This document shows, piece by piece, positions 1 to 12,976 of a DNA stretch of 12,976 nt. The DNA is from an uncultured archaeon (GTDB lineage: Archaea > Iainarchaeota > Iainarchaeia > Iainarchaeales > 0-14-0-20-30-16), in contig CAYZSS010000015.1 in assembly GCA_964480435.1 (NCBI GenBank), forward strand, positions 5,414 through 18,389, written 5' to 3'. The notes below the pieces were generated by a model. It had not been told where the DNA came from and made no database searches. It saw only the letters and a program-made list of their open reading frames with translations. Numbering within the stretch: the stretch's first letter is position 1; each line of letters starts with the position of its first letter. Made by a program: the position numbers and the translations under genes.

Positions 1-55
1 TTGCGAAAATACCTGCGGTAGTGGGTACATAAAGTACCCAGGACGACCTCGATGA
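1..55. repeat. 55-bp perfect direct repeat, copy A (touches the window edge). It is a ghost copy of the last 12 nt of tRNA-Arg plus its 43-nt 3' trailer.
   Basis: nt 1-55 (ttgcgaaaatacctgcggtagtgggtacataaagtacccaggacgacctcgatga) match nt 78-132 base for base. Identity stops at 56 (c) versus 133 (g). There is an internal hairpin tgggtac-ataaa-gtaccca at 22-40. Confidence 0.9.
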
Positions 56-117: not shown

Positions 118-132
118 GGACGACCTCGATGA
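78..132. repeat. 55-bp perfect direct repeat, copy B. It overlaps the genuine 3' end of tRNA-Arg (nt 121-132) and its trailer.
   Basis: Identical to nt 1-55. The two copies are separated by a 22-nt spacer (56-77, ctgccttttagaaaaaggcaag) that is itself a hairpin: tgcctttt / aaaaggca. Confidence 0.9.
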
Positions 133-194
133 GAGTCGAACTCATAATCCCCAGCTTAGGAGGCTGGTGCCTTATCCAATTAGGCCACGAGGTC
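121..194 (-). tRNA. tRNA-Arg, anticodon CCU; no encoded CCA.
   Basis: The reverse complement folds by hand into a cloverleaf. Acceptor GACCTCG/CGAGGTC (7 bp); TG; D-arm GCCT-AATTGGATA-AGGC; A; anticodon arm CCAGC-CTCCTAA-GCTGG; variable GGATT; T-arm ATGAG-TTCGACT-CTCAT; discriminator G. Total 74 nt. GC is much higher than in the flanks. Confidence 0.9.
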
Positions 195-224: not shown

Positions 225-260
225 ATATTATATATATTTTTATACTATTTCTTTTTATAG
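225..260. promoter_or_regulatory. AT-rich divergent promoter region with TATA-like elements, between tRNA-Arg (-) and the 841-aa gene (+).
   Basis: atattatatatatttttatactatttctttttatag lies 31-66 nt from the tRNA 5' end (194) and 15-50 nt from the ATG at 275. The exact TATA assignment is not resolvable by eye. Confidence 0.35.
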
Positions 261-274
261 GTTAGGGAATTATT

Positions 275-2800
275 ATGAATAAAAATGCAATCCTTGTTTT
301 TGCTTTATTTTTTATCCTTATTATCCCACTTTCTTTTTCTAGTCTTGGCAACCTACAGCATTATCAAAACAGTAAAAGTAGTTTTTACACAGGAGCACAC
401 CCTGCAAAAGGTCTAGACAAATCTTGTAATTTATCCTATATTTTACCAGAAAATATAGCTGAACTAAAAAGTTTAGGAATAAAGAAAATTATCGTACTAG
501 GGGGAGATTGCCTAAAACCACAAACTGTTGCAGGCCTAAGTAAAAATTATTTAGGAATTATTGAAGAAGATGGGTTTGAGTATGCATACATTAACATGGG
601 TTCAGTGATTATGAGCAAAAGTAAAAAATATGATGCAGAACTAGCAAAAGCATATTCCTGGCTAGACACTGCAAAAAATGATGTATATGTTCATTGTTAT
701 TATGGAGCACACAGAACAGGGGCTTTTGTGGGTAAATGGTTAATACAAAACAATTTAGCATCTCAGGAAAACAAAAATTATCAGAGAATTATAAAAAATT
801 TAAATTCATTAAAAGGAGAAACACGCACAGAATATCTAAATTGGGTAACAGGAAGTAGTCCTTTACCACAAAGTAACCCAACAGCTAAACAAAGCACAAG
901 TAATCCAGTTGTTAAAAAAGAAACAAGCACGCCAGTTACTAAAAAAGAGACTAGCAATTTATTTGTTAAAAAAGAATCCTACAATGAAAAAGAAGGATAT
1001 ACACTAAAAGTCAACCCAAACTTATATGATATTAAAATTTTATCTGCAAAAACTATTACTGGAAAGTTAAAAGCTACTGTTCAAGAAATGGTTGAAAAAT
1101 CAGGAGCCATTGCAGGAATAAATGCATCTTTCTTTAATGTTAATTCTGGTGGAGATTGCTCAAAACCAACAATATCAGGAGTACCCCTAGGGTTAATGAT
1201 TGAAAACAAAAAAGAATTATATTCATACTTAGGAAGTGGAGAATGGGATTGCCACCTAATGAAAACTACTGCATTTCCAAATAACTTTTTAGTGATAAAT
1301 AACAACATCCCAGAAATAGTTAATAAACAAACATATGATTCTAAATATAGTTCTAAAAATCCAGATTATGCAATACAAAGTGCAGCCTTAAAATATAATA
1401 ATATTTACAACTGTGATTTAGGTCTAAGTTATTGTAGTAATAAATCACACTCTGCATCCTACGCCTGTGTTACTTACGATAACAAACTTTTACTTGCAGT
1501 ATACAGAAAAGCCGGGACAACCTATCCAAATTCCTTTAATCAAAGATGTAAAGAAATTATGATTCTTGATGGAGGAGGAAGTTCATCCCTAATAGTACCA
1601 GAAAAAAATCTTTATTATTCCGGAGAACAAGACTCAAGTGCAGGGAGAGCTGTGCCAAACGCTATTTTAATATTTAAGAAAACAACACCAATCAAACAGG
1701 AAACACCCTTAGCAGAAGAAAATCCAGCCCCAGATCCAATCGAAAAAACTGATGAGATAATTTCTTTTTGTGATATTGACTCAGAGCAAGCAAGTATACT
1801 TTGCCAAGCCGGAGAAAAAATGCTTGATACTTTTTTCACTAAACCCACTAAAAGTAGTATCACAGAAAAACAAATAAATAACAATAACAGCGGTTCTTTT
1901 TCATTTGCAATAATCTCCGACACCCATGTAAATAATTCAAAAATTGGATTACAAAACTTAGATACTTTTGATAGAGCATTAAAAATTTCATTAGATAATG
2001 AAGTTAGTTTTATTGTAGGAGACGGAGATTTAATAGAAAGTGCAAAAAAAGGAGGGGGATTAGTTTCTTCAGACCCTGAAATTGCAAAAAAACAATCCAG
2101 AGAAAACTTTGATTTATTCTATAATAAAATTAAAAACTTATCCACCCCATTTTTCCCTGTTGCTGGAAATCACGATTATTCTTTCTTTAGCGAGTATTGG
2201 AAAGGAACCAAAGAATCAAACATCAACAACCTAAAAAATAATAATTCTAATCTTAATTTCTCAGGAGTCTATCCTAACTATTATGCTTTTTCCTACAATA
2301 ATTCAAGGTTTATTATTTGGTACGCTGTAGGATCTGGACAAGGCGGACAACTAGGTACAGACTGGCTTTTATCAGAGTTATATAAAACAACAAATGTAAA
2401 ATATGACCATGTATTTGTATTTGCACACTACCCACTATTAGATATCACTAGTGCTAACTCACAAGTAGGATACAACAAGCAACAACTAATTGAGGCATTA
2501 AATAGCGCTAATGCAACATATATTGCAGGCCACGCGCATGTATTCTATTTATCAAAGGTTGAGGGAGTAGAACAAATTCTAGTTGGAACACTTTCCACCA
2601 GAACCCAATATACAATAAAAACTACCAACGTGTCCCAATTCCCAAAGAACTTTCTAATAGTTAATGTTTCTGGAGCTGATATTTCTCTAGAGCCATATTC
2701 AGGAAATAATTTGACTGCTGGATTCGACAAATCATTTTGGCCAGCAGATATGCTAGCAATATCACAAGAATTAAGTGAATCAACAATTCAGATATCCTAA
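275..2800 (+). CDS. Secreted or anchored multidomain phosphoesterase: signal peptide, PTP/DSP-like Cys phosphatase, KKETS linker, phosphodiester glycosidase (NAGPA-like, ex-DUF2233), and calcineurin-like metallophosphoesterase.
   Basis: The N-terminal signal-like segment is MNKNAILVFALFFILIIPLSFSS. The PTP signature VHCYYGAHRTG (C141-X5-R147, nt 689-721) is intact. NAGPA-like motifs GAIAGINASFFN and ILDGGGSSSL are present. The full metallophosphoesterase motif set is present: SDTHVN (D at 1919-1921), GDGDL, GNHDY (2165-2179), FAHYPL, GHAHVF. Confidence 0.85.
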   Translation: MNKNAILVFALFFILIIPLSFSSLGNLQHYQNSKSSFYTGAHPAKGLDKSCNLSYILPENIAELKSLGIKKIIVLGGDCLKPQTVAGLSKNYLGIIEEDGFEYAYINMGSVIMSKSKKYDAELAKAYSWLDTAKNDVYVHCYYGAHRTGAFVGKWLIQNNLASQENKNYQRIIKNLNSLKGETRTEYLNWVTGSSPLPQSNPTAKQSTSNPVVKKETSTPVTKKETSNLFVKKESYNEKEGYTLKVNPNLYDIKILSAKTITGKLKATVQEMVEKSGAIAGINASFFNVNSGGDCSKPTISGVPLGLMIENKKELYSYLGSGEWDCHLMKTTAFPNNFLVINNNIPEIVNKQTYDSKYSSKNPDYAIQSAALKYNNIYNCDLGLSYCSNKSHSASYACVTYDNKLLLAVYRKAGTTYPNSFNQRCKEIMILDGGGSSSLIVPEKNLYYSGEQDSSAGRAVPNAILIFKKTTPIKQETPLAEENPAPDPIEKTDEIISFCDIDSEQASILCQAGEKMLDTFFTKPTKSSITEKQINNNNSGSFSFAIISDTHVNNSKIGLQNLDTFDRALKISLDNEVSFIVGDGDLIESAKKGGGLVSSDPEIAKKQSRENFDLFYNKIKNLSTPFFPVAGNHDYSFFSEYWKGTKESNINNLKNNNSNLNFSGVYPNYYAFSYNNSRFIIWYAVGSGQGGQLGTDWLLSELYKTTNVKYDHVFVFAHYPLLDITSANSQVGYNKQQLIEALNSANATYIAGHAHVFYLSKVEGVEQILVGTLSTRTQYTIKTTNVSQFPKNFLIVNVSGADISLEPYSGNNLTAGFDKSFWPADMLAISQELSESTIQIS
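902..982 (+). repeat. Three 27-nt imperfect tandem coding repeats (9-aa units) forming an interdomain linker.
   Basis: The units encode NPVVKKETS / TPVTKKETS / NLFVKKESY. The DNA units share ...gttaaaaaagaaacaagc / ...actaaaaaagagactagc / ...gttaaaaaagaatcctac. Confidence 0.7.
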
Positions 2801-4225: not shown

Positions 4226-5263
4226 TTACTTACCAACACAAGAGTCATAGCTCATTTTTTCATTACTTAGTGCTACCTCCTGAGTATAAGAGATATATTC
4301 TTTTCCGGTTTTCAAATTCCACTGCTCAGAACACATTGAAGGAGCTAAACAGCCACTACAGCTAAATTTTTTAATACACACCCCTTCTGCAAAATTATAG
4401 GTATTTTCGTTTAGCGTTTCTACCGCTGTACAACCAGTTAATAAATTTTGGTAACTAGATACAAAATTCATGTTCTCCGCTTTAAAATACATGTTACAAA
4501 GCGGGAAATCTTGAATAAATCCATCTTTTATTTCCTGGATCTTACCATAAATTCCAGGGCAACTACTTATATACAAACCTGTATACTTTCCAACATTCTT
4601 CACATTAAATGAAATTTTATCTGTGCCAACTGTTTTTGATGCCAATTTCGTAAAAAAGTCTATATTCAGATATATACTATCATAATTAGAAACATCAACA
4701 TCCCCAATTAGCAAGTTAGTTTCATAGTTTGGATTATTGCCTAAATCTAAAGTATAATCTTGTAAAATATTATAGTCGTTTTTTGTGAATTCATTTTGTA
4801 TTACTTGTTTTGAGTCGTCTTTATTCAACCCAAAGATAATTAAACAATAAATTTGTGGGTCAACAAAAGATTCATCATCAAATAACACATTAGAAAAATT
4901 AGGATAACAAATTGTTGAGAACTTCATATCTTTTTTTACTTTCGGGGTAACTGTGATTTTTTTATACAAATCTACACTTGGAACAGGAGATAAATTCATC
5001 ATTTCTACACTCTTATCTAAAGTATAATAAGAATAAACTATATCTAAATTAGCAGGCAGATAGTCCTTTATACTATTATAATTCAAAAGGTTTTCAAATC
5101 TTCCACTACTTGTAAAAAAGTAACCAGGGCTCTCATAGGACAGCTTTAGACTATTAGCTATTGCTTTTTCCATTGGGTCTACTGGTATAAAGAAAAAGAA
5201 GTAGATTATTCCAATCAGCGCCATTGCCACAATAAATAATATTACTATCTTAAAAACATCCAT
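4226..5263 (-). CDS. N-terminally anchored, Cys-rich extracytoplasmic protein of unknown function.
   Basis: ATG start with gaagggatc upstream. The N-terminal TM segment is FKIVILFIVAMALIGIIYFFFFIP. Asn/Asp/Tyr-rich body. Cysteines cluster in the C-terminal third (CPG..., PLCN, TGC, GVC, FSCSGCLAPSMC, DSC). I recognise no family. Confidence 0.6.
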   Translation of the reverse strand: MDVFKIVILFIVAMALIGIIYFFFFIPVDPMEKAIANSLKLSYESPGYFFTSSGRFENLLNYNSIKDYLPANLDIVYSYYTLDKSVEMMNLSPVPSVDLYKKITVTPKVKKDMKFSTICYPNFSNVLFDDESFVDPQIYCLIIFGLNKDDSKQVIQNEFTKNDYNILQDYTLDLGNNPNYETNLLIGDVDVSNYDSIYLNIDFFTKLASKTVGTDKISFNVKNVGKYTGLYISSCPGIYGKIQEIKDGFIQDFPLCNMYFKAENMNFVSSYQNLLTGCTAVETLNENTYNFAEGVCIKKFSCSGCLAPSMCSEQWNLKTGKEYISYTQEVALSNEKMSYDSCVGK

Positions 5264-6015: not shown

Positions 6016-6034
6016 AACTTTCCCAAGTTTTATT
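6011..6034. terminator. Bidirectional hairpin shared by convergent rpoF and the methyltransferase gene.
   Basis: aataaaactt-tccc-aagttttatt forms a 10-bp perfect stem with a 4-nt loop. The rpoF stop TAA (6013-6015) and the MTase stop (6030-6032) both lie inside the stem. On the plus strand it is followed by ttttt. Confidence 0.55.
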
Positions 6035-7175
6035 TTTGTAGCACAATAGTAAACTCTTTTACTTTTCCAAGCTTTGTGGTTCTATCTTTATGACAGACCA
6101 ATTCTCTATTCACTTCACTTTCCACAAATTTAAACCATAAATTATCAGCTAATTTTATAGTATAATCATAAATATCCACTGCATGGTTCTTGAAACAACC
6201 ACCAGCAATAACTACTACTAAGTATCCATTTTTATTAAGCAAGCCATAACTTTTCTTAAAGAACATTTCCAGCCCTGTAAAGTAATTATCCACACTATAA
6301 TTTGCCATTTTGTGTTCAGAATCCAGCCTTATCTTTGGCAAAATACTTGAGAAAAATATAGTATAAAAATTACAATCTTTATTTTCTATTGATTCTGATT
6401 CATTTCCCAGCCCAGGGAGATAAGTTGCAGAATCCAAAAACCAAAGTTCAATCCCATACCTTTTGGTGTATTCTGTTTTATTCAAATAAGGGGGACTAGT
6501 AATAATTAAGTCAAACTTATTGTTTTCAGGGATATCGTGCACAGACCCATTGTGGACTTCTGCTTTTCCACTGAAAAGTTTTTTTCGTTCCCCTCTCTTA
6601 AGATCTTTTATCTGGTTTTTTATCATTTTTTCAAAAACAGCATAAACATTGAATATTGGTACTGCCCTCTTTTTCAAAGATTTTCCTACTTTCTTTGCTT
6701 TTGTTACTGTTTCCAATGTCCTCATTAGAGCCAATATAAAAAAGTCTTTGTAATGCAATTCTAATGATTCAATTCTATCTCTTAGATCTAGCAGACTATC
6801 CAAAACTTCTTTATGAAAGTATTGTTTTACCCAGGCAGGAGTATCAACCTCTAATTTCACAGGATTTATGCTCAACACTTTTTCCTGTTCTTGTTCCAAT
6901 TCTTCAATATTATAATCCCCAGTCTTTGCCCTGCTTACAATTGACATAAGTTTAGAGATATCATAACCAACTGCAGAAAGCCCATTCTCTTTTGCAACCA
7001 AAAGAGTTGTTCCTGTTCCACAAAAAGGGTCCAACACCTTTCCTTTCACATTGTACTTTTTAATATACTTATTAACAATTCCTCTGGAAAACGCTTCAGT
7101 AAAATAAAACCAATTATATATTGGGTAGGTATTATTACCTCTATATGTTGTCCAAAGCTCTGGTTTCCAGCTCAT
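6030..7175 (-). CDS. SAM-dependent N4/N6-type (probably DNA) methyltransferase; solitary.
   Basis: Motif I is VLDPFCGTGTTLL (aa 48-60) and motif IV is IITSPPYLN (aa 224-232). SD aatGGTGATtATG. No nuclease-like partner is present in the window. Confidence 0.75.
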   Translation of the reverse strand: MSWKPELWTTYRGNNTYPIYNWFYFTEAFSRGIVNKYIKKYNVKGKVLDPFCGTGTTLLVAKENGLSAVGYDISKLMSIVSRAKTGDYNIEELEQEQEKVLSINPVKLEVDTPAWVKQYFHKEVLDSLLDLRDRIESLELHYKDFFILALMRTLETVTKAKKVGKSLKKRAVPIFNVYAVFEKMIKNQIKDLKRGERKKLFSGKAEVHNGSVHDIPENNKFDLIITSPPYLNKTEYTKRYGIELWFLDSATYLPGLGNESESIENKDCNFYTIFFSSILPKIRLDSEHKMANYSVDNYFTGLEMFFKKSYGLLNKNGYLVVVIAGGCFKNHAVDIYDYTIKLADNLWFKFVESEVNRELVCHKDRTTKLGKVKEFTIVLQK

Positions 7176-9963: not shown

Positions 9964-10691
9964 TCGGACTAGGGCTAAACCCTAAAGAACTAACTTTAGA
10001 AGGGCTAGAGGCCTTAAAAGCTTGCAAAAAGGTGTACTTGGAAGATTACACCAGTAAGTATTCTGAAGGAACCCTTAATGACCTTGAGAAAACTATTGGA
10101 AAAACAGTAATTCCATTAAAAAGAACAGAAACTGAAGAAGAAAGACCTTTTTTGAACTTTCCTAAGGAAAATGTAGCACTATGTATAATTGGAAATATTA
10201 CTTCAGCAACTACCCATCAAGAGATTCTCTCCGAAGCTCAAGCTAAAGGAATTAAAGTAAAATTAATTCCTGGAATAAGCATTCTTTCCGTAATTCCCAT
10301 GCTTACTGGGTTACAAGAATATAAGTTCGGAAGAACCGTAAGCATAGTAAGACCTGAGAAGAACTACAATCCAACAAGCTTTTTCGACTATTTCCTAGAA
10401 AACCAGAAGATCGGACTTCACACAGTTCTACTATTAGATATTAAAAGAGAAGAGAACTATTTCATGAGTCCAAGCGAGGCTGCCCAGATTCTTTTAGAGA
10501 TTGCCAAAGAGAAAGGCCAAAAACTAGACAAAGTAATAGTTATCTCAAATGCAATGGGCAAGAACCAAAGTGTAGAATATTGCACAGCGGAAAGAATAGC
10601 AAAAAAGAAATACCCTACTAGCAGTATTTCTTGCCTAATAATTCCAGGAAAGCTTCATGATTCCGAGAAAGAGTTTCTAGAAAAATTATAA
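9951..10691 (+). CDS. dphB: Diphthine synthase.
   Basis: MLYLIGLGL...GLEALKACKKVYLEDYTS...SATTH...YKFGRTVS...PTSFFDYFLENQKIGLHTVLLLDIK...LIIPGKLH is collinear with archaeal DphB and yeast Dph5. SD aAGGATGTGATtttATG. The family G-D-P-x-x-A-T-T-H block reads G-N-I-T-S-A-T-T-H here (nt 10191-10199). Confidence 0.9.
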   Translation: MLYLIGLGLNPKELTLEGLEALKACKKVYLEDYTSKYSEGTLNDLEKTIGKTVIPLKRTETEEERPFLNFPKENVALCIIGNITSATTHQEILSEAQAKGIKVKLIPGISILSVIPMLTGLQEYKFGRTVSIVRPEKNYNPTSFFDYFLENQKIGLHTVLLLDIKREENYFMSPSEAAQILLEIAKEKGQKLDKVIVISNAMGKNQSVEYCTAERIAKKKYPTSSISCLIIPGKLHDSEKEFLEKL

Positions 10692-11036
10692 TTCATAAAA
10701 TTCTTTTATCTTTTGTTTTAAGTTAATAAGTGCCTCAGGGGTCAAAGAAGTTATTTTATATTGTAACATTTCTTTGCTTAGCTGTAAAGGTTTGTCTACT
10801 CGAATATAACTGTTTTGTTTTAAACTAGCATCTAATAATTCAGAATTTGTTATTTTTAAAGAAATGTTTGAATCTTTTTCCTTTGTAGTTATGCCTAACA
10901 AAACTACATCTTCAAATAAATTGTTGTAGTTATTTGGGCTTATTATTACTACTGGTCTTGTTTTTAAGGCACTCAAATCAGAACAGGGGTTTTTTGCAAC
11001 AAAAATGCCTCCAACATCATAGTTTAAAGATTGCAT
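10686..11036 (-). CDS. Type II toxin, PemK/MazF family.
   Basis: GGIFVAK...LKTRPVVIISPNNYNNLFEDVVLLGITTKEK...NSYIRVDKPLQLSKEML...LTPEALINLKQKI follows the MazF/PemK pattern (Gdi..v....K.RP.vvvS......d.i.vpiTs....S.v....i.tidk..l...ig.L....l..v...l). I prefer ATG 11036 (gaagggga upstream) to the ORF-track TTG at 11069. Confidence 0.7.
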   Translation of the reverse strand: MQSLNYDVGGIFVAKNPCSDLSALKTRPVVIISPNNYNNLFEDVVLLGITTKEKDSNISLKITNSELLDASLKQNSYIRVDKPLQLSKEMLQYKITSLTPEALINLKQKIKEFYEL

Positions 11037-11220
11037 CTGCTTCTTCCCCTTCACTAAAAAACTTTTCAACTGCTATTTTATCTAAAAAGTTTTCGCCTTT
11101 TTCCAGTTTAGCAACATACTGCTTTATTGCTTTCTGAACAACTACACTCCATCTTATTTCATTATATTTCTTCATTACATCATAAACTTCATTTGGTAAG
11201 GAAAAGGTAACATTAGCCAC
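11017..11220 (-). CDS. Ribbon-helix-helix (CopG/MetJ-like) antitoxin.
   Basis: (M)ANVTFSLPNEVYDVMKKYNEIRWSVVVQKAIKQYVAKLE reads as a beta-strand followed by two helices, then an acidic C-terminal tail (SEGEEADAIF). It lies directly upstream of the toxin and overlaps it by 20 nt. The start is GTG 11220, preceded by taAGGAGTGATattt; the ORF-track GTG 11229 lies inside that SD. Confidence 0.6.
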   Translation of the reverse strand: MANVTFSLPNEVYDVMKKYNEIRWSVVVQKAIKQYVAKLEKGENFLDKIAVEKFFSEGEEADAIFKL

Positions 11221-11246
11221 AAATATCACTCCTTATATTGGGGCCT

Positions 11247-11841: not shown

Positions 11842-11846
11842 TAAGT

Positions 11847-11960
11847 GTAAACAGCGTGCAACTTTTCCCGCGCGTCTACGCAGTACATACCGCCGATGGC
11901 AAACTTAACTTCCGGGTTCGGAATGGGACCGGGTGTTTCTCTGCCTCTATGGCCGTTTAC
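11847..11960 (-). rRNA. 5S ribosomal RNA (ends accurate to within a few nt).
   Basis: The reverse complement is GTAAACGGCCATAGAGGCAGAGAAACACCCGGTCCCATTCCGAACCCGGAAGTTAAGTTTGCCATCGGCGGTATGTACTGCGTAGACGCGCGGGAAAAGTTGCACGCTGTTTAC. It contains the universal CCGAAC...GGAAGTTAAG, GTACTG and GGGAAA blocks. The terminal helix GTAAACGGC/GCTGTTTAC closes. It is a GC-rich island in AT-rich DNA. Confidence 0.9.
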
Positions 11961-12028: not shown

Positions 12029-12976
12029 CTACCTGCTCCAGGCATCCTCATCAAATTCTTTATTATCAGGAAGATCTTCTATATCAGAGTCATCGTCCTT
12101 AGGCCCTTCAGGTTTTGGCTCTTCTACTTTTGGTTCTTCAGTTTTAGGTTCATCTTCAACCACAGGTTCTTCTGTTTCCTCTACCTTTGATTCAGATTCT
12201 TCAGTTACAGAGGGGCTTTCTTCCGGAGCTTTTTCTACGGGTTTAGGAATTTGCTCCTTAGGAACTGTCAAGCTACTTGGCTTATTCTTGGAAACAAGAG
12301 TAACAACAACTATTAAAATAATAATCAGAAGAGCTACTACACCTCCAACAACACCAGCAATTAACTTATTATCCTTAAGCCAAGCCAATAGATCTTTTGT
12401 TTCATTTGTAGCGTCACCAGTAGTATTATCATCTTGATTTTCTTCCCCTGTTACTCCTAAATCACCAGCAGCATTATTATTATTATTTGTTCCAGAACCA
12501 GCAGATCCAGATTGTACTACACATCTATGGTTTTCTACTTTTTCGTTTGTCCCACAGCCCAAAGATACACAAACATTAGATGAACATTTTTTATCAGCAG
12601 CACACTGAGCATCATATATACAAGCCACACAGGTATGATTGGATGGATACTTGCCACTAGTACAAGCTAATGTTGTACAAACATTAGCATTACAATATTC
12701 TAATGGTAAACATTCTGCACTTGAAGTACAAGAGTCATCACCACTAGCACTACCACCACCACTACTGCTACTACCACCATCACTACTACTGCTACTGCTA
12801 CCATCACCAGTATTATTATTAGTTACAGTGTCAAGCAAAATTAAAGGCAAATAATCAACATAATCATCAGAGCCACATTCAAATTCATAGACATCATCAC
12901 AGAAAGCATCATCATTTGCATTCTCACATCTGTCAGAATCATTAGAGAACCCATGCCACCAATTTCCGCCTATTCC
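12029..12976 (-). CDS. Large surface protein, N-terminus cut by the window edge: Cys-rich repeat modules, Ser/Gly stalk, C-terminal TM anchor and acidic Pro/Glu/Lys tail.
   Basis: The frame stays open upstream of the ORF-track TTG (12850) all the way to nt 12976 (GIGGNWWHGFSNDSDRCENANDDAFCDDVYEFECGSDDYVDYLPL...). Two roughly 35-aa modules are SAECLPLEYCNANVCTTLACTSGKYPSNHTCVA and DAQCAADKKCSSNVCVSLGCGTNEKVENHRCVV. The TM segment is LIAGVVGGVVALLIIILIVVVTLVS (nt 12290-12364). The tail contains EEPVVEDEPKTEEPKVEEPKPEGPK. Confidence 0.7.
   Translation of the reverse strand, partial: GIGGNWWHGFSNDSDRCENANDDAFCDDVYEFECGSDDYVDYLPLILLDTVTNNNTGDGSSSSSSDGGSSSSGGGSASGDDSCTSSAECLPLEYCNANVCTTLACTSGKYPSNHTCVACIYDAQCAADKKCSSNVCVSLGCGTNEKVENHRCVVQSGSAGSGTNNNNNAAGDLGVTGEENQDDNTTGDATNETKDLLAWLKDNKLIAGVVGGVVALLIIILIVVVTLVSKNKPSSLTVPKEQIPKPVEKAPEESPSVTEESESKVEETEEPVVEDEPKTEEPKVEEPKPEGPKDDDSDIEDLPDNKEFDEDAWSR

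What the first reader, a model, noticed from the sequence alone, without database searches (positions are those of the whole stretch)
275..2800. Secreted three-in-one phosphoesterase: PTP-like, NAGPA-like phosphodiester glycosidase and metallophosphoesterase on one polypeptide
One 841-aa ORF with a signal-peptide-like N-terminus chains three catalytic modules that all act on phosphate esters, and each has an intact signature.
- Cys-phosphatase loop VHCYYGAHRTG (CX5R[S/T]).
- NAGPA / 'uncovering-enzyme'-type phosphodiester glycosidase blocks GINASFFN and LDGGGSS.
- All five calcineurin-like metallophosphoesterase motifs: DTH, GDGD, GNHD, H, GHAH.

The modules are joined by a 3 x 9-aa KKETS repeat and a Pro/Glu linker. 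Each domain is well known individually, but I do not recognise this fusion as a described architecture.

The following is inference. Secreted PTP-like domains are known as phytase-type enzymes, and NAGPA-type enzymes cleave sugar-1-phosphodiester caps. An exported enzyme combining these with a metallophosphoesterase could strip and then dephosphorylate phosphodiester-linked glycans or teichoic-like polymers, either its own or a host's. For a small-genome archaeon this could serve phosphate scavenging or surface remodelling.
Basis: partly seen in the sequence, partly recalled or inferred. Interest (0 to 1): 0.7.

Follow-up and report, generated by a model that had tools for sequence, protein, structure and literature searches.

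The report
Secreted three-enzyme phosphoesterase of a DPANN archaeon
A tiny-genome archaeon encodes one exported protein that joins three phosphate-ester-cleaving enzymes, a rare combination whose nearest relatives are fused to bacterial-cell-wall-degrading enzymes, so it probably strips and dephosphorylates sugar-phosphate polymers outside the cell; this function has not been tested.

Summary
ORF 275..2800 (+) encodes 841 aa with one N-terminal hydrophobic segment and three catalytic modules.

- **NAGPA module:** Pfam above threshold. All 15 significant PDB fold matches are NAGPA/DUF2233. DGGGS and the essential Arg are present.
- **Metallophosphoesterase (MPE):** Pfam above threshold. All five metal motifs are intact. 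The closest solved relatives are purple acid phosphatases.
- **Cys-phosphatase module:** It belongs to the superfamily only. The fold resembles SsoPTP, PRL and PFA-DSP, not the phytase type. The general-acid position is Ser here.

The gene is not a chimera. An independent Iainarchaeota-type MAG carries a collinear 807-aa orthologue in the same synteny. A sister lineage keeps only the Cys-phosphatase and NAGPA modules.

The novelty is partial. MPE+NAGPA fusions recur in Woesearchaeota proteins that also carry peptidoglycan hydrolases, and the literature already mentions such fusions. The added Cys-phosphatase is the rare part: I found three sequence clusters plus two fragments among billions of proteins.

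The best reading is an exported "uncover, then dephosphorylate" enzyme acting on sugar-1-phosphodiester glycopolymers, most likely from bacterial cell walls. That function is inferred, not shown.

The parts
226..274 (+). Upstream region with a TATA-like A/T box and a GGTTAGGG ribosome-binding-like element
   Evidence: ATATATAT...TATAC and AGGT[T/A]GAGG-like elements are conserved before the start codon in the syntenic loci L001 and L003. Promoter function is inferred; the sigma-70 scan is not informative for archaea.
275..2800 (+). Complete gene for the 841-aa tri-modular protein (end includes the stop codon)
   Evidence: ORF listing. Collinear 807-aa orthologue P0002 at 51% identity and 100% coverage in an independent MAG.
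275..343 (+). Signal peptide or N-terminal signal anchor (aa 1-23, MNKNAILVFALFFILIIPLSFSS)
   Evidence: Only strongly hydrophobic window in the protein. Conserved PLSF[S/A/G] motif in all homologues. Cleavage is inferred.
347..844 (+). Cys-based phosphatase (atypical DSP-like) domain, aa 25-190; P-loop VHCYYGAHRTG at nt 689-721 (Cys141, Arg147)
   Evidence: PTP-clan Pfam hits in all 3 members. SsoPTP profile hit E 1.9e-4. AF2 model pLDDT 76 with Foldseek best hit SsoPTP 2i6p at E 1.9e-5, and 40 matches at E<=1e-3.
845..979 (+). Linker 1 (aa 191-235) containing the 3 x 9-aa [ST]xxxVKKE[TS] repeat (nt 896-976)
   Evidence: Tandem Repeats Finder: period 27, 3.0 copies. Insertion absent from P0002 and P0003; 24-35% identity to them.
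980..1681 (+). NAGPA-type phosphodiester glycosidase domain, aa 236-469; GINASFFN nt 1115-1138, DGGGS nt 1568-1582 (Asp432), Arg458 nt 1646-1648
   Evidence: PF09992 at 41.2 bits vs cutoff 25. Family profile hits guinea-pig NAGPA at E 2.2e-11 with DGGGS and Arg aligned. AF2 pLDDT 79; all 15 significant Foldseek hits are DUF2233/NAGPA. Motif roles from PMC13474241.
1682..1756 (+). Pro/Glu-rich linker 2, aa 470-494
   Evidence: Sequence. Replaced by poly-Thr in homologues; 13-14% identity.
1757..1843 (+). Conserved Cys-x10-Cys / EKML-TFF mini-module, aa 495-523, function unknown
   Evidence: C499, C510, E514-K-M-L517 and T519-F-F521 are invariant in all three members. It forms the C-terminus of the two-domain protein P0003.
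1895..2797 (+). Binuclear metallophosphoesterase domain, aa 541-841; metal motifs D549-x-H551, G584-D585, G631-N-H-D634, H718, G752-H-x-H755
   Evidence: PF00149 at 46.3 bits vs cutoff 21.5. Motif residues invariant or near-invariant in 45 relatives. Family profile hits purple acid phosphatases at E 2e-25, then Rv0805 and GpdQ.

Best explanation
The gene encodes an exported (secreted or N-terminally anchored) tri-catalytic enzyme of an Iainarchaeota-type DPANN archaeon.

**Proposed mechanism (inferred)**
1. The NAGPA module cleaves the glycosidic C-O bond of a sugar-1-phosphodiester. This releases the capping or linking sugar and leaves a phosphomonoester on the remaining glycan.
2. The two phosphatase modules then hydrolyse the exposed phosphate and neighbouring phosphoester bonds, releasing phosphate. 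These are a dual-specificity-type Cys phosphatase and a purple-acid-phosphatase-like binuclear metallophosphoesterase.

**Likely substrate**
The most likely substrates are phosphodiester-linked glycopolymers of bacterial cell walls. These include wall-teichoic-acid or secondary-polymer linkage units and sugar-1-phosphate polymers. The enzyme would attack them to scavenge phosphate and sugar, or to strip the wall.

**Shown versus inferred**
- Shown here: domain identities, intact catalytic motifs, conservation, rarity, and the association of relatives with peptidoglycan hydrolases.
- Inferred: export, the order of reactions, and the substrate.
For: - **Domains and motifs:**. DGGGS (the human D286 motif) and an Arg aligned to human R316 are essential for NAGPA catalysis according to PMC13474241.
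- **Selective constraint:** all three modules are conserved at 53-67% identity between the window protein and its homologues (PTP and NAGPA: P0002 and P0003; MPE: P0002 only). Linkers are 13-35% identical and contain indels.
- **NAGPA is always paired with a phosphatase in this family:** PTP+NAGPA+MPE in P0001 and P0002, and PTP+NAGPA in P0003, which occurs in 5 assemblies. The next relatives carry MPE+NAGPA.
- **Relatives carry cell-wall hydrolases:** the closest non-family relatives of both the NAGPA and MPE modules are Woesearchaeota proteins. These also carry SLT lytic transglycosylase, GH73 glucosaminidase, C39-like peptidase or GDSL esterase domains. One sits next to a Peptidase_M74 murein endopeptidase.
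- **Syntenic neighbour:** in the syntenic Iainarchaeota locus, the conserved neighbour gene is fused to an N-acetylmuramoyl-L-alanine amidase.
- **Export:** a single N-terminal hydrophobic segment and 10 non-catalytic Cys that are invariant in the homologues fit an exported protein.
- **Literature:** DPANN 'large lytic murein transglycosylases' have been read as evidence of attack on bacteria (PMC9723730). Extracellular calcineurin-like phosphoesterases fused to NAGPA have been predicted to act on (lipo)teichoic acids, with PhoD as the precedent (10.1101/2024.03.27.587046). NAGPA has been found fused to TelC and NlpC/P60 in bacterial conflict proteins.
Against: - No biochemical data exist for any member of the family.
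- This protein itself has no peptidoglycan-hydrolase or wall-binding domain.
- Neighbourhood conservation is seen only among close relatives that also share housekeeping synteny, so it says little about functional linkage.
- The residues that give human NAGPA its GlcNAc specificity (E226, T227) could not be mapped, so the sugar is unknown.
- The residue aligned to the SsoPTP general acid is Ser114 here, versus Glu or Asp in the homologues. The Cys-phosphatase may therefore be slow on monoesters or prefer phosphoanhydrides.
- The MPE is dispensable in one lineage.
- Most NAGPA-family proteins are stand-alone and of unknown role.
Confidence: 0.5

Rival explanations
1. It is a general extracellular organophosphate scavenger acting on soluble compounds rather than on wall polymers. 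NAGPA would split nucleotide sugars or sugar-1-phosphodiesters. The MPE would hydrolyse nucleotides or diesters. The PFA-DSP-like Cys phosphatase would hydrolyse pyro- or polyphosphate or inositol pyrophosphates. The archaeon would take up the released phosphate.
For: - The P-loop HC-x-x-G-[A/K]-H-R-T-G resembles PFA-DSP/Siw14 (HCKRGKHRTG), whose known substrates are phosphoanhydrides (my own knowledge).
- No Asp sits at the general-acid position, which suits good leaving groups.
- The MPE is closest to purple acid phosphatases, which are broad phosphomonoesterases.
- The protein has no carbohydrate- or wall-binding domain.
Against: - The closest relatives of the NAGPA and MPE modules are embedded in polymer-degrading, peptidoglycan-targeting proteins.
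- Pfam scores to the PFA-DSP family (PF03162) are below threshold in all members.
Confidence: 0.25
2. It remodels the archaeon's own cell surface. It would trim phosphodiester-linked sugars on S-layer or lipid-linked glycans, analogous to the eukaryotic uncovering enzyme acting on the cell's own glycoproteins.
For: - A sugar-1-phosphate nucleotidylyltransferase and two membrane proteins are conserved next to the gene in all three syntenic loci.
- Human NAGPA acts on self glycans.
Against: - The neighbour genes are convergently transcribed, and the synteny extends into housekeeping genes, so linkage is uninformative.
- The family is extremely rare even among DPANN genomes: 2 of 185,579 species genomes. 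That argues against a core surface-biogenesis role.
- Relatives are fused to enzymes that degrade peptidoglycan. To my knowledge (not tested here), Iainarchaeota do not make peptidoglycan.
Confidence: 0.15
3. It is an artefact: a chimeric assembly, or a decaying fusion in which one or more modules are inactive.
For: - The window's exact protein is on record from a single contig.
- Ser replaces the acidic residue at the putative general-acid position of the Cys phosphatase.
- One lineage has lost the MPE.
Against: - An independent MAG has the same three modules in the same order over 100% of the length.
- Fragments P0005 and P0006 point to further members.
- The reading frame is uninterrupted.
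- Catalytic residues are invariant while the linkers diverge.
Confidence: 0.03

Closest known systems
Woesearchaeota (DPANN) 'large lytic murein transglycosylase' multidomain proteins, e.g. P0156/MBT4823688.1 (MPE + SLT + NAGPA + weak, sub-threshold GDSL match) and P0007/PIN86129.1 (MPE + 2 NAGPA)
   Same: They are the best non-family matches of the NAGPA module (P0004/P0156, 40% identity in alignment A3). The MPE module's best non-family match is P0007 (32% identity). They are exported DPANN proteins that pair a NAGPA domain with a phosphatase.
   Different: Domain order is reversed: MPE first there, NAGPA before MPE here. They carry peptidoglycan hydrolase domains that this protein lacks, and they have no Cys-phosphatase domain.
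Bacterial extracellular calcineurin-like phosphoesterase radiation around B. subtilis ShfP, some members fused to NAGPA (10.1101/2024.03.27.587046), and the teichoic-acid hydrolase PhoD
   Same: Signal peptide plus binuclear metallophosphoesterase, sometimes with NAGPA. They are predicted or shown to hydrolyse phosphoester links in cell-surface polymers.
   Different: Direct homology of this MPE to ShfP or PhoD was not tested. This protein has no Ig, LTD or FN3 adhesion domains. It is archaeal and carries an extra Cys phosphatase.
Vertebrate uncovering enzyme NAGPA and bacterial DUF2233 proteins (PDB 6PKU, 6PKY, 6U11, 3OHG, 5H3K)
   Same: Same fold (TM up to 0.68). DGGGS loop and the phosphate-binding Arg are conserved, and Pfam membership is met.
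   Different: Sequence identity is about 13-15%. There is no propeptide, EGF stalk or C-terminal membrane anchor. The sugar-recognition residues could not be mapped, and the domain is fused to two phosphatases.
Small archaeal and atypical dual-specificity Cys phosphatases: SsoPTP, Tk-PTP, PRL, and PFA-DSP1/Siw14
   Same: Size, fold and the HCX5R(T) P-loop. The homologues' GKHRTG matches the PFA-DSP P-loop.
   Different: Those enzymes are, to my knowledge, cytoplasmic (not checked here). This domain is exported and has two extra invariant Cys (C51, C79). It scores below the gathering score of every specific Pfam family, and it has Ser at the position aligned to the SsoPTP general acid.
Purple acid phosphatases (e.g. 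PDB 6GJA, 1UTE, 1KBP)
   Same: They are the best solved relatives of the MPE family profile (E 2e-25). GD, GNH[D/E], H and GHxH motifs are shared.
   Different: Motif I is DxH, not GDxG. Motif II has no Tyr ligand (GDLIE here versus GDxxY). It is therefore not a true purple (Fe-Tyr) enzyme; its ligand set resembles GpdQ, Rv0805 and Mre11.

Membership tests
Cys-based PTP/DSP superfamily (Pfam clan CL0031) | HCX5R(S/T) P-loop with nucleophilic Cys and Arg | tested here: met
   VHCYYGAHRTG at aa 139-149. H140, C141, G144, H146, R147, T148 and G149 are invariant in the three members.
Cys-based PTP/DSP superfamily (Pfam clan CL0031) | DSP/PTP alpha-beta fold | tested here: met
   AF2 model pLDDT 76, pTM 0.78. 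The 50 best-listed Foldseek PDB matches, including all 40 at E<=1e-3, are Cys phosphatases; the best is SsoPTP at 1.9e-5 with TM 0.56-0.60. The model confidence is only moderate.
Cys-based PTP/DSP superfamily (Pfam clan CL0031) | Score above the gathering threshold of a specific family model | tested here: not met
   For the window protein, DSPc scores 23.1-25.8 bits versus a cutoff of 33.5, and every other family is also below cutoff. Only homologue P0003 passes one model (PF22785, 29.6 versus 27).
Cys-based PTP/DSP superfamily (Pfam clan CL0031) | General-acid Asp on the loop preceding the P-loop | tested here: inconclusive
   The position aligned to SsoPTP's 'PDGG' Asp is Ser114 here, Glu in P0002 and Asp in P0003. 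I take that Asp to be SsoPTP's general acid (D69) from memory; this was not checked here. The window protein has Asp120 where the others have Asn. Model coordinates could not be inspected.
PTP-like phytases (PTPLP) | Larger two-domain PTP-like fold with structural similarity to Selenomonas-type phytases | tested here: not met
   The domain is about 165 aa. No PTP-like phytase appears among the 50 best Foldseek matches or among the PDB sequence-profile hits.
PFA-DSP / Siw14 family (PF03162) | Family HMM above threshold and an HCKRGKHRTG-type P-loop | tested here: not met
   PF03162 scores 14.6-21.1 bits versus a cutoff of 27. The P-loop is similar (GKHRTG in P0002 and P0003, GAHRTG here). PDB hits to At1g05000, DSP1 and Siw14 have E 0.026-0.21.
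NAGPA / phosphodiester glycosidase (PF09992, DUF2233) | Family HMM above the gathering score | tested here: met
   41.2 bits versus 25, covering profile positions 2-169 of 169. P0002 and P0003 also pass.
NAGPA / phosphodiester glycosidase (PF09992, DUF2233) | Invariant DGGGS catalytic loop and the phosphate-binding Arg (human D286, R316) | tested here: met
   D432-G-G-G-S436 aligns to DGGGS of guinea-pig NAGPA, and R458 aligns to the Arg of 'CPRRV'. Residue roles come from PMC13474241. D208/G209/G210 of alignment A3 are invariant in 11 sequences.
NAGPA / phosphodiester glycosidase (PF09992, DUF2233) | Three-subdomain alpha/beta fold | tested here: met
   AF2 pLDDT 79, pTM 0.84. All 15 Foldseek hits at E<=1e-3 are NAGPA/DUF2233 structures, and the next hit has E 0.2.
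NAGPA / phosphodiester glycosidase (PF09992, DUF2233) | GlcNAc-specific recognition (human E226, T227) | tested here: inconclusive
   The region aligns with gaps and insertions, so no confident equivalents could be assigned. The sugar specificity is unknown.
Calcineurin-like metallophosphoesterases (PF00149) | Family HMM above the gathering score, and five metal-binding motifs | tested here: met
   46.3 bits versus 21.5. In 45 relatives: D549 43/45, D585, G631, N632, H633 and D634 45/45, H753 44/45, H755 40/45, and H551 as H or N in 40/45 (27 H + 13 N). The motif IV His is invariant in 21 sequences.
Purple acid phosphatases sensu stricto | Tyr metal ligand in motif II (GDxxY) and GDxG in motif I | tested here: not met
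   Motif II is G-D-L-I-E (E588, with no Tyr in relatives) and motif I is D-T-H. The PAP motif definitions are from my own knowledge.
DPANN/bacterial multidomain cell-wall hydrolases with MPE+NAGPA | Presence of a peptidoglycan-cleaving domain (SLT, GH73, amidase or peptidase) | tested here: not met
   No such domain is found in the 841-aa protein at E<=1. They are present in relatives P0004/P0156, P0009, P0012, P0091 and P0123.
Exported proteins (Sec signal peptide) | A predictor-supported signal peptide and cleavage site | not testable with these tools
   Only hydropathy and the -3/-1 pattern could be examined. SignalP or DeepTMHMM is needed.

The most novel reading that the evidence does not exclude
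This is a founding member of a previously unrecognised class of archaeal anti-bacterial or wall-harvesting enzymes. The NAGPA module would hydrolyse the sugar-1-phosphate linkage unit that anchors teichoic acids or secondary polymers to peptidoglycan. A fused glycan-directed Cys phosphatase (functionally like the glucan phosphatases laforin and SEX4) and the MPE would then remove the residual MurNAc-6-phosphate and degrade the released polymer. That would be the first assigned physiological substrate for a prokaryotic NAGPA domain. It would also be direct molecular evidence that Iainarchaeota feed on, or attack, Gram-positive-type walls.
Probability: 0.15. Interest if true: 0.8.

Novelty: new variant of a known kind. 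Interest (0 to 1): 0.45.

Why it matters
Prokaryotic NAGPA/DUF2233 proteins are numerous (1,057 relatives in one search), yet I found no physiological substrate reported for them.

In this family the NAGPA domain is always tied to one or two phosphatases. In the next relatives it is tied to peptidoglycan hydrolases. That gives a concrete and testable hypothesis: NAGPA uncovers a sugar-1-phosphodiester, the phosphatases remove the exposed phosphate, and the substrates are bacterial wall polymers.

If true, three things follow:
- It would add a phosphate-harvesting or wall-stripping step to the proposed predatory or scavenging lifestyle of DPANN archaea.
- It would extend that idea from Woesearchaeota to Iainarchaeota.
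- It would provide an exported Cys phosphatase acting on glycans.

If the protein only scavenges soluble organophosphates, it is an ordinary, though unusually compact, nutrient-acquisition enzyme.

Tried and rejected
- **Chimeric assembly or frameshift:** rejected. There is a collinear orthologue in an independent MAG and an intact reading frame.
- **PTP-like phytase identity for module 1:** rejected.
- **True purple acid phosphatase identity for module 3:** rejected on ligand motifs.
- **Deeper homologues for the PTP-like domain:** the profile word-index search with A2 returned nothing at E<=10. The exhaustive phmmer search found no PTP-region hit outside the family.
- **More family members:** the genome-contig scan gave only 2 loci, and the JGI metagenome scan gave none.
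- **Architecture statistics:** the NAGPA-profile search lists only the best 120 of 1,057 hits, all without PTP or MPE. A full census was therefore not possible.
- **NCBIfam on the whole protein:** no meaningful hit.
- **Sigma-70 promoter and terminator scan:** uninformative for an archaeon.
- **Neighbouring genes as functional clues:** the nucleotidylyltransferase is generic and below all equivalog cutoffs. The 202-aa and 345-aa membrane proteins match no family.
- **Literature on PTP+NAGPA fusions:** none found.


Full report
**1. What is in the sequence**

The window carries an uninterrupted ORF at 275..2800 on the + strand, with an ATG start and 841 codons.

The genomic context is archaeal. 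Neighbouring genes include ribosomal protein L21e, an Rpb4-like RNA polymerase subunit, a Trm5/TYW2 methyltransferase, a tetrapyrrole-methylase-family protein (PF00590; probably diphthine synthase in this archaeal context, my inference) and DUF63. There is also a 5S rRNA gene and a tRNA-Arg(CCT). GC content is about 31%.

The same gene order occurs in a MAG named 'Candidatus ainarchaeum sp.' (GCA_028710695.1) and in an uncultured-archaeon bin. Iainarchaeota belong to the DPANN group (Nanobdellati).

The 27-nt x 3 repeat is detected by Tandem Repeats Finder. The only strongly hydrophobic stretch is residues 4-24, and it ends in a conserved S-F-[S/A/G] motif. This looks like a signal peptide or signal anchor, but no predictor was available.

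**2. The three modules**

*NAGPA module (aa 236-469).*
- Pfam PF09992 scores 41.2 bits against a cutoff of 25.
- A profile of this domain and ten relatives hits guinea-pig NAGPA at E 2.2e-11, Slr0280 at 2e-14 and the DUF2233 structure 3OHG at 1.4e-7.
- The AlphaFold model (pLDDT 79, pTM 0.84) gives 15 significant Foldseek matches. All are NAGPA/DUF2233 structures, and the next hit has E 0.2.
- The DGGGS loop is strictly invariant across the family. In the human enzyme, D286A, G288A, G289A, S290A and R316 substitutions abolish activity (PMC13474241).
- Here the loop is D432-S436, and R458 aligns with the essential Arg.
- The residues that recognise the N-acetyl group in the human enzyme could not be mapped, so the sugar is unknown.

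*Metallophosphoesterase (aa 541-841).*
- PF00149 scores 46.3 bits against a cutoff of 21.5.
- The metal ligands D549/H551, D585, N632/H633, H718 and H753/H755 are invariant or nearly so in 45 relatives.
- A 21-sequence profile hits purple acid phosphatases best (E 2e-25), then Rv0805, GpdQ and SMPDL3.
- Motif I is DxH and motif II lacks the Tyr ligand, so this is not a true purple enzyme.

*Cys-phosphatase module (aa 25-190).* This is the weakest assignment.
- DSPc scores E 6.8e-5, below the gathering score.
- All three family members nevertheless hit seven PTP-clan families, with the best E 1.7e-7. P0003 passes PF22785.
- The family profile hits SsoPTP at E 1.9e-4, and PFA-DSP1, At1g05000 and Siw14 more weakly.
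- The model (pLDDT 76) gives 40 Foldseek matches at E<=1e-3, and the 50 best-listed matches are all Cys phosphatases. These include SsoPTP, PRL-1, Cdc14, PFA-DSP1, Tk-PTP, MKPs and a plant glucan phosphatase (4KYQ). None is a PTP-like phytase.
- H140, C141, R147 and T148 are invariant.
- The position aligned to SsoPTP's 'PDGG' Asp, which I take from memory to be its general acid, is Ser114 here, Glu in P0002 and Asp in P0003.
- The module is therefore a superfamily member with an intact nucleophile loop. It has no specific family assignment, and its general acid is uncertain.

**3. The fusion is real and under selection**

- P0002 (807 aa) aligns over 100% of the length at 51% identity (BLASTP; 55% in the MAFFT alignment), in the same gene neighbourhood of an independent assembly.
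- Between the window protein and its homologues, the modules are 53-67% identical. The linkers are 13-35% identical and contain indels.
- The KKETS repeat is an insertion found only in the window protein. The Pro/Glu linker is replaced by poly-Thr in the others.
- P0003 (490 aa; five near-identical copies in separate assemblies) is a complete gene that ends right after a conserved Cys-x10-Cys/EKML-TFF element and has no MPE.
- P0002 and P0003 are closer to each other (PTP 70%, NAGPA 86%) than either is to the window protein. The MPE was therefore lost secondarily.
- The constant core is thus the Cys phosphatase plus NAGPA.
- Ten non-catalytic Cys are invariant, which fits an extracellular protein with disulfides.

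**4. Rarity, and what the relatives look like**

- An exhaustive phmmer search of 1.84 billion representatives found no other protein matching all three modules. It returned 172 hits, nearly all to the MPE alone, plus two short fragments of further family members.
- Only 2 of 185,579 species genomes carry the family. A JGI metagenome scan found none.
- The best 120 of 1,057 NAGPA relatives are essentially all stand-alone proteins.
- The nearest non-family relatives of both the NAGPA and MPE modules are large proteins that carry both domains together with wall-degrading domains:

| Protein | Architecture |
|---|---|
| P0004/P0156 | MPE + SLT + NAGPA (+ weak, sub-threshold GDSL match in P0156) |
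| P0009 | MPE + NAGPA + weak, sub-threshold SLT match |
| P0012 | MPE + NAGPA + GH73 glucosaminidase + C39-like peptidase |
| P0013 | GDSL + MPE + NAGPA |
| P0007 | MPE + 2 NAGPA |
| P0091 | NAGPA + SLT |
| P0123 | C39-like peptidase + NAGPA + SLT |

- The named proteins among these are from Woesearchaeota and one KSB1 bacterium.
- P0004 lies beside a Peptidase_M74 murein endopeptidase.
- In the syntenic Iainarchaeota locus, the conserved 345-aa membrane-anchored Cys-rich neighbour is extended by an N-acetylmuramoyl-L-alanine amidase domain.

**5. Literature**

- Woesearchaeota 'large lytic murein transglycosylases' have been taken as evidence for attack on bacteria (PMC9723730; also cited in PMC12352652).
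- An analysis of B. subtilis ShfP describes a vast radiation of extracellular calcineurin-like phosphoesterases. Some are fused to NAGPA, and they are predicted to cleave (lipo)teichoic acid, eDNA or lipid head groups, with PhoD as precedent.
- NAGPA is also found fused to TelC and NlpC/P60 in predicted conflict proteins of Bacillota.
- I found nothing on a Cys-phosphatase/NAGPA fusion.

**6. Mechanism**

The chemistry of NAGPA is cleavage of the sugar C1-O bond, which leaves a phosphomonoester. In this family NAGPA is also constantly paired with a phosphatase. Together these suggest an 'uncover, then dephosphorylate' sequence carried out outside the cell.

Because the relatives sit in peptidoglycan-degrading proteins, the most likely substrates are phosphodiester-linked polymers of bacterial walls. 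This is inference, and I give it about 0.5 overall. My confidence that bacterial walls specifically are the target is lower.

The rivals are:
- scavenging of soluble organophosphates (0.25), favoured by the PFA-DSP-like P-loop, the missing Asp and the absence of any binding domain;
- remodelling of the archaeon's own surface (0.15);
- artefact (0.03).

**7. Verdict**

This is a new variant of a known kind. It is a rare three-way fusion within an already noted class of exported MPE/NAGPA enzymes. It matters mainly because it gives a testable handle on the unknown function of prokaryotic NAGPA domains and on how DPANN archaea acquire nutrients. Interest 0.45.

Noticed in passing
window 1-55 and 78-132 (tRNA-Arg at 121-194, minus strand): A perfect 55-nt direct repeat. 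The second copy overlaps the last 12 nt (3' end) of tRNA-Arg(CCT). The first copy is followed by a hairpin-like CTGCCTTTT..AAAAAGGCA. The repeat is absent from the syntenic loci, although the tRNA is conserved there. It could be a local duplication, an att-like scar or an assembly artefact near a contig end.
   Followed up: partly
window 4226-5263 (-) versus L001 6496-8178: The 345-aa membrane-anchored, Cys-rich protein with no family match is 47% identical to the first 351 aa of a 560-aa protein in the related MAG. That protein carries an extra C-terminal N-acetylmuramoyl-L-alanine amidase domain, so a peptidoglycan hydrolase is being gained or lost at this locus.
   Followed up: partly
L003 420-1892 (P0003) and L005: A sister lineage has a complete two-domain version (Cys phosphatase + NAGPA, 490 aa) with the MPE cleanly absent. 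The next gene starts 15 nt after the stop. Five near-identical copies occur in separate assemblies.
   Followed up: yes
window 1757-1843 (aa 495-523): A small conserved element (Cys-x10-Cys, then EKML-x-TFF) lies between the NAGPA domain and the MPE. It is retained as the C-terminus of the two-domain protein. Its function is unknown.
   Followed up: no
window 10686-11069 (-) and 11017-11229 (-): A PemK/MazF-type toxin gene (E 8e-12) is preceded by an overlapping 70-aa ORF that could be its antitoxin.
   Followed up: no
window 11846-11960 (-): A stand-alone 5S rRNA gene (Rfam 90 bits) is not adjacent to other rRNA genes within the window.
   Followed up: no
window 6030-7175 (-): An N6/N4 DNA methyltransferase (PF01555) has no obvious restriction partner nearby. 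It is conserved in the syntenic loci.
   Followed up: no
window 12029-12850 (-): A 273-aa protein with a Ser/Gly-rich, Cys-rich N-terminal part, one transmembrane segment and a highly acidic Pro/Glu-rich tail. It has no confident family match.
   Followed up: no
L002 (Woesearchaeota contig JABIPR010000055.1) 5421-11069: The MPE+SLT+NAGPA protein P0004 lies two genes downstream of, and on the same strand as, a Peptidase_M74 (murein endopeptidase) gene, within a run of unannotated proteins. This may be a wall-degradation gene cluster.
   Followed up: no
tool behaviour: The word-index search with the 3-sequence PTP-domain profile returned no hit at E<=10, not even the source proteins. That negative result is therefore not informative.
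   Followed up: no
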